Source of the DNA: a virus
Taxonomy: Duplodnaviria > Caudoviricetes
Direction: 5' to 3' (one strand)
Length of the DNA stretch: 64,000 bases
IMG/VR virus record: IMGVR_UViG_3300036546_000172
Coordinates: 73,943-137,942 of that record
The notes beneath the pieces are model-generated. The model was not told the DNA's origin and did not search any database. It worked only from the letters and a program-made list of their open reading frames with translations. Below, piece after piece: positions 16,257 to 20,512 of the stretch. Numbering within the stretch: the first letter of the stretch is position 1; the number at the start of each line of letters is the position of its first letter. Position numbers and translations under genes: made by a program.

Positions 16257-16380
16257 AGACAACAAAGCCTCGCGCTAGCTCAATTGGATAGAGCACCTCC
16301 CTTCTTTTGTGCATTCGTGTAGTGTACAAAAGAAGGAGGTGGTTACTGGTTCGACTCCAGTGCGCGAGGCTTTGTTGTCT
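16257..16380 (+). ncRNA. tRNA-Arg(TCT)-like RNA with 27-nt anticodon insertion and extended acceptor stem
   Basis: 19-bp perfect terminal inverted repeat; intact D and T arms; removing 16306-16332 restores loop CTTCTAA; no CCA. Confidence 0.75.
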
Positions 16381-17776: not shown

Positions 17777-17782
17777 GACAAC

Positions 17783-17871
17783 AGAGAGTGATTCCAGCTG
17801 GTGCTGGAGACCGCCTGCTAAGCGGTTCGCCTGATTCATCGGGTGTGGTTCAATTCCACCGCTCTCTGCCA
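17783..17871 (+). tRNA. tRNA-Ser(GCT)
   Basis: loop CTGCTAA, long variable arm, G73, CCA. Confidence 0.88.
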
Positions 17872-17872
17872 T

Positions 17873-17971
17873 GGAGAGGTAAGCCGAAAGATCCGGGGTA
17901 GCGGCAACGGTCGTGAAAACCGAGGGTTTACGAAAGTAGACGTCAGGGTTCGAATCCCTGTCTCTCCGCCA
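17873..17971 (+). tRNA. tRNA-Ser(TGA), enlarged D loop, G33
   Basis: loop CGTGAAA, long variable arm, CCA. Confidence 0.8.
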
Positions 17972-17978
17972 TATTGTG

Positions 17979-18140: not shown

Positions 18141-18214
18141 GACGAGTTGGCCGAATGACCAGGCGACGAGCTGCAACCTCGTTCATGTGAGTTTGAATCT
18201 CACACTCGTCTCCA
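18141..18214 (+). tRNA. tRNA-Cys(GCA)
   Basis: loop CTGCAAC; U73; CCA. Confidence 0.9.
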
Positions 18215-18352
18215 ACATTGATGGTCTTTCGAAATGAATAGTAGTTATCACATATAAATGACGCTACAATGTATTTCGAAAGTTAAGAACACCGCCGGAC
18301 TGGCCCATCCGGGTACTGGTAGGGATTGAAGTTCCTAGGGCCACGCTCTTTA

Positions 18353-18737
18353 ACAAACATCATTGAGGTAGTCTCTAGGTGAGTTAACGGCCATTGACTC
18401 ATTGAGGATTGGCGGAATAAAGTCGGAGGTCTTGGGCTTAACGCACGTTCAAAGAGGTGGTTCTCGGTCATCTATCAAATGGTAGATGACGCAGTCTGAA
18501 AAGGCTTGAACGGTTCCTTGCATACACTACAGGCTACAGACCCTACTCTGTTAAGCATGTCAACAGTTCTCTCACCCTCATGCATGACTTGAAGATATTC
18601 TTCATAGTCGATGTCTGGCAACAGATGAGACAACAGATGACCAATCTAAGTCAGTCAGAGTCAACAAAGAGAGATGCAGGGGTGTTGGTAATAAGCTAGT
18701 CCAGCATTCTCACAGAGACTACCTCAATGATGTTTGT
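18353..18737 (+). ncRNA. large structured ncRNA of unknown class (385 nt)
   Basis: perfect 24-bp closing stem, many internal hairpins with G-U pairs, long-range complementarities; no + strand ORF. Confidence 0.75.
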
Positions 18738-18742
18738 ATTAG

Positions 18743-18820
18743 TGCAGGGTGGACTGGAGATGGTTCCAGCTCGGTCTCATAAGCCGAATGACGGGGGTTC
18801 GAATCCCTCCCCTGCTTCCA
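18743..18820 (+). tRNA. tRNA-Met(CAT), initiator-like
   Basis: 1:72 mismatch, loop CTCATAA, CCA. Confidence 0.88.
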
Positions 18821-18898
18821 TATAATCGAAAACCTGGTGCGGTGTGATGATACATCTACTACAGGGTACCGAGGATGGTAGTTCACTCGGATCTTTTA

Positions 18899-18974
18899 GC
18901 CCGGTTAGCACAATTGGGAGTGCAATCGCCTTGTAAGCGATAGGTTGTAGGTTCGAGTCCTACACTGGGCACCA
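18899..18974 (+). tRNA. tRNA-Thr(TGT)
   Basis: loop CTTGTAA; CCA. Confidence 0.93.
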
Positions 18975-19013: not shown

Positions 19014-19865
19014 ATGTTTAAAGTAACTCTTCCTTCTAACGATGACTTCTACTGTCTGTGTAATCTGACTGGGTTACCACTTGGTCAATCTCTCATCATC
19101 ACCAACAATACCAACTCACAAATCAGAGTCAATCGAGTATCGGTTAAGCCAGAAGATCCTCTATTAGGATTCCCAGTATGGCCTGGTCAGACTATTCTAG
19201 TTCATGGTAATGAAGAGCAACCGGTCTGGACCAGAGGTAATACCAACGGCTACATTCTGGTACAAACTCTGACTGAAACCATGATGCCCCTAACCGGAGT
19301 AGAGTTTCCACAGGACATCGTGACATCAGGCATTGAGGGTTTTCGCAGACTTCAAGTCGATACAGGACAGACCGGATTCTTCGAAGGTCGTGAGTTTCGT
19401 TTTCTGCGTAAGATAAGATCCGGCATTACTTTCAAGTTCGTATCGGCTGTAGATTTCGTGTTGTATGAACAGGTGTTCGGTATCTCTTCAGGAGCTTACG
19501 AGTTTCATGCCTGGCGTGTAGATAATGTAGAAGAGACGGCGTCCTTTGGTACTGATCTGTCACAACACATCATTAACAAAAACGCCTCTGGCGAATACCG
19601 AGATTATAATGGAGATAGATATCAAACTCAGGTAAGCATATCATCAGGAGGAACGCTGGCTATTAACGATGTTGAATTATATACTGACTATGCTGAAATG
19701 AGAACGGCAGGTTCTACAGCACAACGAGCGAGTGTGAATCAAGGCGGTAACACACAGCGATATCTACCAGCAGGTACGTATTACCTATCGTTTACTGTTC
19801 TTGATGCACTAGTTCGCGGTACGTATCAAATTGGATGGGAAGAAAGACCATCGGGAGTGAAATAG
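19014..19865 (+). CDS. hypothetical late (possibly virion) protein
   Basis: TAAATA late-promoter-like motif upstream; beta-rich composition. Confidence 0.6.
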   Translation: MFKVTLPSNDDFYCLCNLTGLPLGQSLIITNNTNSQIRVNRVSVKPEDPLLGFPVWPGQTILVHGNEEQPVWTRGNTNGYILVQTLTETMMPLTGVEFPQDIVTSGIEGFRRLQVDTGQTGFFEGREFRFLRKIRSGITFKFVSAVDFVLYEQVFGISSGAYEFHAWRVDNVEETASFGTDLSQHIINKNASGEYRDYNGDRYQTQVSISSGGTLAINDVELYTDYAEMRTAGSTAQRASVNQGGNTQRYLPAGTYYLSFTVLDALVRGTYQIGWEERPSGVK

Positions 19866-20512
19866 TGACACATGCATTAGTGAATAAAGTGAAATTAATT
19901 GATGATCGAGACATGGTGATTCGTGCATCTATCGACGGTCAGTTTGAAGCAGATACCTTCAAGTTCGTTGATCATCATATGCCTGTAGGTGGTCTGTTTA
20001 TGGATATCGGCGCGTATTCTGGTATCTACTCACTGTACGTGGCTCAGTTCAAAGATGCAGTAGCTTATGGATTTGAGCCTAACCCATTATTGTTTGAGCG
20101 TTTCAATCAGAACATTGAACTGAATGGATTGAGATCTAACATTCAACCGCTCAACTTCGGATTATCAAACAAACAACAGAAAGCCTCGTTGTACGTCAAT
20201 CCAAACACACACCTGACATCCGCTGGCAGTCTATCACCAGAACGCGGTAAGACCTCTGTATTCGAAGTAGATATAGAGGTGTATGATGACATGCCGTTCT
20301 CCGTGCTGTCTATTGACATGGTCAAGATAGACGTTGAGGGTCACGAGTCTCAGGTGATTGAGGGAATGATTTACACGCTTAAACGTGATCATCCAATTGT
20401 CATTGTAGAGTGCTTAGATGAGCAGGCGGTGAAGCAATGTGATGATCTTCTACTACCTCTTGGATATGAAAGGACTGGTTGTCTCGATGACAGAAACTAC
20501 ACGTACCAATAA
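19835..20512 (+). CDS. FkbM-family methyltransferase
   Basis: DIGAYSGIYS, FEPNP and KIDVEGHE motifs. Confidence 0.88.
   Translation: MGRKTIGSEIVTHALVNKVKLIDDRDMVIRASIDGQFEADTFKFVDHHMPVGGLFMDIGAYSGIYSLYVAQFKDAVAYGFEPNPLLFERFNQNIELNGLRSNIQPLNFGLSNKQQKASLYVNPNTHLTSAGSLSPERGKTSVFEVDIEVYDDMPFSVLSIDMVKIDVEGHESQVIEGMIYTLKRDHPIVIVECLDEQAVKQCDDLLLPLGYERTGCLDDRNYTYQ

What the first reader, a model, noticed from the sequence alone, without database searches (positions are those of the whole stretch)
18353..18737. 385-nt ornate non-coding RNA in the tRNA cluster, closed by a perfect 24-bp stem
Seen: ACAAACATCATTGAGGTAGTCTCT (18353-76) is the exact reverse complement of 18714-37. Inside are hairpin 18379-18402 and a multibranch closed by CGTTCAA/TTGAACG (18446-52/18506-12), which holds GTCATCTATC/GGTAGATGAC and AGTCT-GAAA-AGGCT. 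Further helices are GCATG/CATGC, TGAAGA/TCTTCA and GTGTTGG/CCAGCAT, plus a tandem CAACAGATGA repeat (18619, 18631). Three 3' segments (CAGAGT 18656, GAGAGA 18669, ATGCAGGGG 18674) complement upstream ACTCTG, TCTCTC and TCCTTGCAT, which implies pseudoknots. Several helices use G-U pairs, favouring RNA over DNA structure, and there is no + strand ORF. Established: large ornate RNAs (GOLLD, ROOL) and T4 species I/II RNAs occur in phage tRNA regions. Inference: a stable, co-processed phage ncRNA that I cannot match to a known class; the best candidate for a new system here.
Basis: partly seen in the sequence, partly recalled or inferred. Interest (0 to 1): 0.88.

Follow-up and report, generated by a model that had tools for sequence, protein, structure and literature searches.

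The report
Clamped, enlarged manA-type phage RNA
The 385-base element in this marine T4-like phage's tRNA cluster is a real, conserved structured RNA: a distant, enlarged relative of the known manA RNA (reported in 2026 to build RNA-only cages), locked by a long end-to-end helix, so it probably works as a free-standing RNA and not as a gene switch.

Summary

I found three further versions in metagenome contigs of related phages: L189, L191 (identical to L192) and L194. On the four-sequence alignment, 114 predicted pairs are 99.1% paired and 45 show changes on both sides; no shuffle or slid control comes close. Forty-five G-U cells place the RNA on the + strand.

It is not a new class. Its core is a distant relative of the manA RNA motif (Rfam RF01745):
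- Rfam gives full-length but sub-threshold matches in all four copies (24-41 bits; gathering score 55.2).
- A model built only from the new sequences finds true manA RNAs in return (E about 1e-8).

The variant has three new features:
- The penultimate manA hairpin is replaced by a ~160-nt multi-helix domain.
- A 22-24-bp terminal clamp with 10 covarying pairs is absent from 107 other manA loci.
- Two of three lineages sit inside tRNA arrays.

Most likely it is a processed, stand-alone RNA, possibly self-assembling like manA. There is no expression evidence. The scan flagged this stretch before only in overlapping windows of the same genome.

The parts
18353..18376 (+). 5' arm of the terminal clamp (24 bp in the window, 22 bp in the homologs)
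   Evidence: Exact complement of 18714-37. 22 pairs are kept in all 4 sequences and 10 of them change on both sides. The duplex is worth -39.6 kcal/mol.
18714..18737 (+). 3' arm of the terminal clamp; tRNA-Met starts 5-6 nt downstream
18379..18402 (+). P1 hairpin (stem 18379-87 / 18394-402) with an invariant loop core at 18387-94
   Evidence: 9 pairs, 6 with changes on both sides, while the loop never varies. Aligned to manA P1 by cmscan.
18403..18408 (+). 5' strand of the closing stem of the manA-type core; it pairs with 18708-18712
   Evidence: 5 pairs, 100% paired, one with a change on both sides. cmscan's alternative partner (18540-44) and the helix seen only in the MFE fold (18379-83 / 18709-13) are not kept in the homologs (read from A3).
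18412..18444 (+). P2 hairpin with the manA-type conserved internal-loop bases (GAAUAA on one side, UAA on the other)
   Evidence: helices 4 and 5.
18446..18512 (+). Four-way junction: closing stem 18446-51 / 18507-12; hairpin with the GUGGU loop (18454-65); variable hairpin (18467-90); GAAA-capped hairpin (18493-506)
   Evidence: The closing stem has 5 of 6 pairs changed on both sides. The junction and the GUGGU loop align to the manA consensus.
18515..18522 (+). 5' strand of the base stem of the expansion domain; it pairs with 18675-18682. It sits where manA has its penultimate hairpin, directly after the conserved GGU.
   Evidence: 8 pairs, 5 with changes on both sides. The position relative to the manA consensus was read.
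18523..18674 (+). Expansion domain of about 150 nt. Helices: 18545-50 / 18656-61, 18555-59 / 18579-83, 18585-90 / 18648-53, 18591-95 / 18599-603, and 18607-17 / 18622-31, which is capped by a GNRA tetraloop in every sequence. Candidate pseudoknot 18569-73 / 18669-73. It holds the longest invariant stretch of the RNA (about 18547-18564).
18685..18704 (+). Last hairpin, equivalent to the last hairpin of manA. Its loop (18694-97) can pair with 18565-68 in the expansion domain.
   Evidence: 4 pairs are kept. The manA signature GGUA-N5-7-(U/G)AAUCC is exact in L189, L191 and L194, and one base off in the window. The loop-loop pairing holds in all 4 sequences with one change on both sides.
18708..18712 (+). 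3' strand of the closing stem
   Evidence: helix 3.

Best explanation
The element is the gene of a roughly 385-nt structured RNA read from the + strand. It is a divergent, enlarged relative of the manA RNA family.

Shown:
- The manA-type core is kept in order along 18379-18713: P1, closing stem, P2 with its conserved internal loop, four-way junction, last hairpin.
- The penultimate manA hairpin is replaced by a ~160-nt multi-helix domain on the same base stem.
- The whole fold is shut by a perfect 22-24-bp terminal helix.
- It is conserved in at least three lineages of related T4-like phage contigs.

Inferred:
- It is made as part of the tRNA-array transcript.
- It is released as a discrete, stable RNA, by a double-strand-specific nuclease (RNase III type) cutting the terminal helix and/or by RNase P cutting at the tRNA 5-6 nt downstream. 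The helix would then protect both ends.
- A fold sealed inside a roughly -40 kcal/mol helix and followed by tRNA genes cannot pass a ligand signal to an expression platform. It therefore acts in trans and not as a riboswitch.
- By homology with manA RNAs, which a 2026 preprint shows assemble in vitro into pentamer-based RNA-only decamers and a 60-mer cage through loop-loop and GNRA contacts, its invariant loops most likely mediate RNA-RNA assembly. The clamp and the extra domain would be peripheral additions. What the particle does in infection is unknown.
For: Reality of the RNA:
- Homologs L189:1148-1529(-), L191:1039-1420 (identical to L192) and L194:1516-1898 were found and aligned (A3).
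- RNAalifold predicts 114 pairs, 45 with changes on both sides.
- 99.1% of cells are paired; 0 of 500 shuffles reach this, and slid controls give at most 5 such pairs.
- Pairing is 99.1% read on the + strand against 89.7% read on the - strand.

Link to manA:
- Rfam gives full-length matches of 33.1 bits (E 4e-8 per genome) and 41.3, 37.1 and 24.4 bits in the homologs.
- Model R1, built only from the new sequences, finds true manA RNAs at 42-49 bits (E 1e-7 to 1e-8), with a gradient down to the canonical forms and only one non-manA hit at E below 1.
- An nhmmer profile of A3 hits the same manA subgroup.
- The last-hairpin signature is present, as is loop-loop complementarity with covariation.

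Stand-alone RNA:
- The clamp is conserved with 10 covarying pairs.
- The clamp is unique to this group: flank duplex energy is -54 kcal/mol, against a median of -12.4 and a minimum of -24.3 in 107 other manA loci.
- tRNA genes flank the element in the window and in L194.
- No terminator or convincing promoter lies next to it.
- Some canonical manA RNAs abut same-strand tRNA genes with 0-18 nt gaps.

Assembly: bioRxiv 10.64898/2026.07.01.735769. Two helices in this RNA carry GNRA loops in every sequence.
Against: - All matches to RF01745 lie below its gathering score.
- The ACCA loop of manA is replaced by GAAA and the penultimate hairpin is missing. cmscan could align the 3' part only through local ends.
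- The isolated 3' part gives no Rfam hit, and a sequence-only profile of the last hairpin is not significant in the window.
- Only four sequences from three lineages exist, and two of them are close, so the counts overstate the number of independent events.
- The consensus fold lies 24 kcal/mol above the computed free MFE of the window sequence.
- In L189 and L191 the RNA sits about 45 nt upstream of a methyltransferase gene with no tRNA nearby. That fits a leader role.
- Oligomer formation is an in-vitro preprint result on RNAs under 200 nt. The clamp and the 160-nt domain might not be compatible with it.
Confidence: 0.6

Rival explanations
1. It is a cis-acting leader or riboswitch of the manA type that controls the downstream genes, namely the FkbM-family methyltransferase that follows it in all four contigs.
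For: manA was described as a riboswitch candidate found in 5' UTRs (PMC2864571). In all four contigs an FkbM-type methyltransferase lies downstream. In L189 and L191 it starts only about 45 nt after the clamp.
Against: In the window two tRNA genes and a 283-aa ORF lie between the RNA and the methyltransferase; in L194 there are three tRNA genes. The fold is sealed by a 22-24-bp helix, so no part of it is free to pair with an expression platform. No terminator follows it. The shared synteny may simply reflect common descent.
Confidence: 0.12
2. It is mainly a processing or architectural element of the tRNA-array precursor. The long helix is an RNase III entry site that starts maturation of the neighbouring tRNAs, and the released RNA is a by-product.
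For: A second perfect long helix (19 bp, 16257-75 / 16362-80) brackets another RNA in the same array. The clamp ends 5-6 nt before tRNA-Met.
Against: A processing site does not need 335 nt of covarying internal structure with invariant loops. L189 and L191 keep the whole RNA without any tRNA on their 2-kb contigs.
Confidence: 0.1
3. It is an RNA class unrelated to manA, and the resemblance is chance or convergence.
For: Scores lie below Rfam's gathering score. About half of the molecule has no counterpart in manA. The 3' part alone gives no Rfam hit.
Against: Four independent full-length, collinear matches. The reciprocal model finds about 30 true manA RNAs and almost nothing else. The junction bases and the last-hairpin signature are shared.
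Confidence: 0.05
4. It is a DNA-level inverted-repeat element (a MITE or a recombination relic) with no RNA function.
For: The terminal inverted repeat is perfect.
Against: It is single-copy in the 138-kb genome. It lies at the same genomic place in relatives. There are 45 covarying internal pairs and obligate G-U pairs that would be A-C mismatches on the other strand.
Confidence: 0.01

Closest known systems
manA RNA motif (Rfam RF01745; Weinberg et al. 2010, PMC2864571; cryo-EM preprint 10.64898/2026.07.01.735769)
   Same: Same order of elements: P1 hairpin, closing stem, hairpin with the GAAUAA / UAA internal loop, four-way junction with a GUGGU-loop hairpin, and a last hairpin carrying the GGUA...AAUCC signature. 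Found in T4-like marine phages. The similarity is significant in both directions.
   Different: It scores 24-41 bits, against 107-195 bits for accepted members. The core is 335 nt instead of about 190-200 nt. The penultimate hairpin is replaced by a 160-nt domain of about six helices with a candidate pseudoknot. The ACCA loop is replaced by GAAA. There is an added 22-24-bp terminal clamp. Instead of a promoter box directly upstream of P1, it is embedded in a tRNA array.
ROOL and GOLLD large ornate RNAs
   Same: Large, multi-helix non-coding RNAs of phages and prophages, often next to tRNA genes and of unknown function. They are reported to form RNA-only multimers, as manA now is.
   Different: No Rfam match to either family, even at E up to 10. 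This RNA is smaller, and its core is manA-like.
RNase III processing stalks that bracket 16S and 23S rRNA in bacterial rRNA operons (established knowledge)
   Same: A long, uninterrupted duplex formed by the two flanks of a structured RNA inside a polycistronic precursor that also carries tRNAs.
   Different: Cleavage has not been shown here. The duplex may instead serve as an end-protecting clamp that stays on the mature RNA.
Phage T4 stable RNAs 'species 1' and 'species 2' in the T4 tRNA region (from my own knowledge)
   Same: Non-tRNA stable RNAs encoded within the tRNA cluster of a T4-type phage and matured from the same precursors.
   Different: They are much shorter. No sequence or structure comparison was made here.

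Membership tests
manA RNA (RF01745) | Covariance-model score at or above Rfam's gathering score (55.2 bits) | tested here: not met
   33.1 bits in the window; 41.3, 37.1 and 24.4 bits in L191, L189 and L194. Accepted members fetched here score 107-195 bits.
manA RNA (RF01745) | Statistically significant, full-length, collinear match to the family model | tested here: met
   Model positions 1-192 of 192 are matched, E 4.4e-8 for the whole 138-kb genome, and it is the only hit. The same holds in three homologs.
manA RNA (RF01745) | Reciprocal detection: a model of the candidate group finds accepted members | tested here: met
   R1, built from the four new 5' cores only, hits manA RNAs at 16-49 bits at the annotated manA positions. 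One non-manA hit has E below 1 in 0.84 Mb.
manA RNA (RF01745) | P1 hairpin followed by a closing stem that encloses the rest of the fold | tested here: met
   P1 has 6 of 9 pairs covarying. The closing stem 18403-08 / 18708-12 is 100% paired.
manA RNA (RF01745) | Hairpin with the conserved internal-loop bases GAAUAA and UAA | tested here: met
   Present at 18415-20 and 18439-41. Kept in L189 and L191; L194 has one U-to-C change within GAAUAA.
manA RNA (RF01745) | Four-way junction whose first hairpin has the GUGGUG loop | tested here: met
   Junction stem 18446-51 / 18507-12 has 5 of 6 pairs covarying. The loop GUGGU at 18457-61 is kept in three sequences; L194 has GUGGG.
manA RNA (RF01745) | Third junction hairpin with the ACCA loop (complementary to the GUGGUG loop) | tested here: not met
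   The loop is GAAA in all four sequences.
manA RNA (RF01745) | Penultimate hairpin of about 36 nt with a conserved loop | tested here: not met
   It is replaced by a ~160-nt domain on a covarying base stem (18515-22 / 18675-82) at the same position.
manA RNA (RF01745) | Last hairpin with the GGUA...AAUCC signature, directly before the 3' closing strand | tested here: met
   Exact in L189, L191 and L194; one substitution in the window. The motif occurs in 73 of 134 manA loci and is rare elsewhere in the 3.2 Mb of sequence held. However, there is no Rfam hit on the isolated 3' part, and a sequence-only profile is not significant.
manA RNA (RF01745) | Assembly into pentamer-based closed oligomers (preprint 10.64898/2026.07.01.735769) | not testable with these tools
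   Needs in-vitro transcription with native gel, SEC or cryo-EM.
GOLLD, ROOL, tmRNA, RNase P, group I intron | Match to the Rfam covariance model | tested here: not met
   No match at the gathering score over the window, nor at E up to 10 over 18150-18900.
MITE or other mobile inverted-repeat element | Several dispersed copies; target-site duplication | tested here: not met
   One copy in the 137,942-bp genome. The flanks show no duplication. The neighbourhood is the same in relatives.
RNase III processing stem | Uninterrupted RNA duplex of about two helical turns formed by the flanks of the released RNA | tested here: met
   22-24 bp without a mismatch or bulge in all four sequences; L189 has one G-U pair.
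RNase III processing stem | Cleavage by RNase III | not testable with these tools
   Needs an enzyme assay or RNA end mapping.

The most novel reading that the evidence does not exclude
The clamped RNA is cut out of the phage tRNA precursor and assembles in the infected cell into an RNA-only closed particle of the manA type. The terminal helix and the 160-nt domain would decorate that particle. The particle would serve tRNA-related or anti-defence biology, for example by sequestering a host factor or tRNA fragments. That would be the first in-vivo role for an RNA cage, and would show that the orphan manA 'riboswitch candidate' class is really a family of free-standing, self-assembling phage RNAs.
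Probability: 0.2. Interest if true: 0.85.

Novelty: new variant of a known kind. Interest (0 to 1): 0.6.

Why it matters
manA has been an orphan 'riboswitch candidate' since 2010, and a 2026 preprint found that it builds RNA-only cages in vitro without addressing its biology.

This variant bears on that question. Its fold is sealed by a long helix, it lies among tRNA genes, and it has no expression platform, so at least this branch cannot work as a conventional cis switch and should exist as a free RNA. Some canonical manA RNAs also abut tRNA genes directly. Together these points make 'manA is a stand-alone, processed, possibly self-assembling phage RNA' a testable idea.

The variant also offers a natural construct with a defined closed end for structural work. 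It extends the family beyond what Rfam's threshold captures. The 160-nt insertion shows which part of the manA scaffold tolerates large additions.

Tried and rejected
Searches that found nothing:
- blastn of the element and of its neighbours against 50,697 phage records: no match.
- Exact 24-mer in viral contigs: none.
- Close-relative searches with the downstream 283-aa ORF and with Dda helicase: none.
- First degenerate pattern: 5 chance hits, none manA-like.
- Relatives reached through the 283-aa ORF (L009, L010-13, L135-137): no element next to the gene. L009 has a dispersed tRNA region but no manA match.
- Further pattern scans of viral and prokaryote-genome contigs: only chance hits.
- Methyltransferase relatives L198-L200: no element.

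Tests that were not significant:
- Sequence-only profile of the last manA hairpin against the window.
- Rfam on the isolated 3' part: no hit.

Pairings considered and rejected:
- cmscan's placement of the 3' closing strand at 18540-44, which pairs poorly in L194. The site at 18708-12 is preferred.
- The MFE-only extension of the clamp (18379-83 / 18709-13), which is broken in L189 and L194.
- Coding potential on either strand: the ORFs are short and the homologs differ by frame-breaking indels.

Full report
**Where it lies.** The window is bases 73,943-137,942 of a complete 137,942-bp virus record with terminal repeats. Its genes are those of a T4-type phage: family-B DNA polymerase, rIIA, gp46-like nuclease subunit, Dda helicase and RNA ligase. 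All large ORFs are on the + strand. The element lies in a + strand tRNA array, between tRNA-Cys (ends 18214) and tRNA-Met (starts 18743-44).

**The observation.** The two 24-nt arms are exact reverse complements, and they form the longest perfect inverted repeat within 1 kb in the whole window. The + strand folds with z = -6.3 and the - strand with z = -5.4, so single-sequence folding does not decide the strand. No ORF longer than 39 aa (+ strand) or 62 aa (- strand) overlaps it. It occurs once in the genome.

**First link to a known family.** No Rfam family reaches its gathering score. With E-value reporting, the 5' half gives a full-length match to manA RNA (RF01745): 33.1 bits against a gathering score of 55.2, and E = 4.4e-8 for the whole genome, where it is the only hit. 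The alignment shares the unpaired junction bases while the stems differ in sequence. cmscan skipped the last two manA hairpins through local ends.

**Reference set of true manA RNAs.** Pattern scans of viral contigs fetched more than 140 loci. Canonical members score 150-195 bits. Two variant groups score 120-143 and 107-111 bits. Many have a promoter-like box directly upstream of P1.

**Homologs of the element itself.**
- A degenerate pattern run on metagenome contigs gave one true hit, L189. It aligns over the whole element, including both clamp arms.
- Its downstream gene is an FkbM-type methyltransferase, 43% identical to the window's gene at 19835-20512.
- Relatives of that protein led to L191 (identical to L192) and L194, which also carry the element.
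- L194, like the window, holds it inside a tRNA array, with a tRNA ending about 20 nt before the clamp.
- L189 and L191 have no tRNA on their 2-kb contigs.
- All further searches found no more members.

**Structure.** On the four-sequence alignment A3, RNAalifold predicts 114 pairs in 18 helices, and 45 pairs change on both sides.
- Counting gives 99.1% of cells paired. No shuffle out of 500 reaches any of the measures, and sliding the partners by 1-3 columns leaves 32-41% paired and at most 5 such pairs.
- The terminal clamp keeps 22 pairs in every sequence, 10 of them covarying. P1 has 6 of 9 pairs covarying, the junction stem 5 of 6, and the long-range base stem of the expansion domain 5 of 8.
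- Forty-five cells are G-U and four pairs are G-U in all sequences. Read on the other strand, pairing falls to 89.7%. This fixes the + strand and excludes a purely DNA-level repeat.
- Caveats: there are only three lineages. The consensus fold is 24 kcal/mol above the free MFE of the window sequence. The MFE-only helix that replaces P1 is not conserved.

**Full correspondence with manA.** The covariation-supported fold shows that the manA-type core spans 18379-18713, not 18379-18549.
- After the junction and the conserved GGU comes the base stem 18515-22 / 18675-82. This is exactly where manA has its penultimate hairpin. One unpaired U follows, then the last hairpin, then the 3' closing strand at 18708-12.
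- The last-hairpin signature of manA is exact in three of the four new sequences at that place.
- The loop of that hairpin can pair with a loop in the expansion domain in all four sequences, with covariation. This echoes the complementarity between the last two loops of canonical manA.
- The reverse test also holds. A model built only from the new 5' cores (A4, R1) finds true manA RNAs at 42-49 bits for one variant group, 28-38 bits for the other, and 16-23 bits for canonical forms. Almost nothing else is found.
- Negative results: the isolated 3' part gives no Rfam hit, and a sequence-only profile of the last hairpin is not significant.

**What is new in this branch.**
- A ~160-nt domain of about six helices with a candidate pseudoknot (18569-73 / 18669-73). 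It contains the most conserved stretch of the RNA and a helix capped by a GNRA loop in every sequence.
- GAAA in place of the ACCA loop.
- The terminal clamp, which no other manA locus has: -54 kcal/mol against a median of -12.4 and a minimum of -24.3 in 107 loci.
- The tRNA-array setting.

**Mechanism.** A fold locked by a roughly -40 kcal/mol helix and followed by tRNA genes, with no terminator, has no way to act on an expression platform. I therefore read it as a trans-acting RNA, released from the array transcript and kept stable by the clamp. Three observations fit this reading:
- The RNA is much better conserved than the neighbouring protein.
- Roughly 6-10% of the other manA loci abut same-strand tRNA genes with gaps of 0-18 nt.
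- A second perfect 19-bp helix brackets another RNA in the same array.

A July 2026 preprint reports that manA RNAs assemble in vitro into decamers, octamers and a 60-subunit icosahedral cage. These are built from pentamers held by kissing loops and a GNRA-receptor contact, and the peripheral helices set the stoichiometry. By homology, self-assembly is the most likely molecular activity here, but that step is inference only.

**Verdict.** This is a real, conserved, ornate phage RNA. It is a new, enlarged and clamped variant of the known manA family, not a new class.

Noticed in passing
window 18295-18343: A small H-type pseudoknot lies just upstream of the element (stem 18295-99 / 18308-12; loop 18301-06 pairs with 18338-43). 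It is conserved in L194, where a tRNA separates it from the big RNA, and in shortened form in L189. All 11 pairs are kept and 3 change on both sides. No Rfam match.
   Followed up: partly
L060:2795-3072, L044:2878-3155, L092:1892-2159, L033:2344-2609, L019:344-627, L023:1-195, L069:1-168: Canonical manA RNAs that directly abut a same-strand tRNA gene, with gaps of 0-18 nt either before or after it. This applies to about 8-10 of roughly 140 loci. It fits maturation by tRNA-processing enzymes and sits poorly with a purely 5'-UTR role.
   Followed up: partly
L140, L146, L163, L138, L154 (upstream of the manA start): Two manA variant groups have a T4-late-type TATAAATA box or a -10-like box a few bases upstream of P1, so P1 would be the 5' end of a primary transcript. 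Their enlarged P1 loops hold short palindromes (GAUC, UGAUCA), as does the invariant P1 loop of the new group (GGCC). These are possible loop-loop contact sites.
   Followed up: no
window 16257-16380: A second perfect long inverted repeat (19 bp, 86 nt apart) lies in the same tRNA array and brackets a tRNA-like sequence that ARAGORN does not call. It may be another RNA released through a long duplex.
   Followed up: no
window 17782-17975: Two tRNA-like stretches that ARAGORN missed. 17782-17868 matches Rfam's tRNA-Sec model at 59.8 bits and is probably a long-arm tRNA. 17869-17975 ends in a T-arm and CCA-like sequence, carries a long insert, and has no call by either tool.
   Followed up: no
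window 18228-18282: A 10-bp hairpin between tRNA-Cys and the small pseudoknot. Its 35-nt loop contains a near match to the T4 late promoter box.
   Followed up: no
L137 and L198 (NCBI contig JAWWAS010000001.1, 148 kb, labelled a Nitrosopumilaceae MAG): This contig carries homologs of this phage's 283-aa ORF and methyltransferase, a 7-tRNA array, and small ORFs typical of T4-type phages. It looks like a phage genome binned into an archaeal MAG.
   Followed up: no
canonical manA loci, e.g. L022:956-1145: In the Rfam consensus, the GUGGUG loop is complementary to the ACCA loop, and the loops of the last two hairpins are complementary to each other. These are probably the L5-L7' and L8-L9' kissing contacts of the cryo-EM preprint. 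This mapping is my own inference.
   Followed up: no
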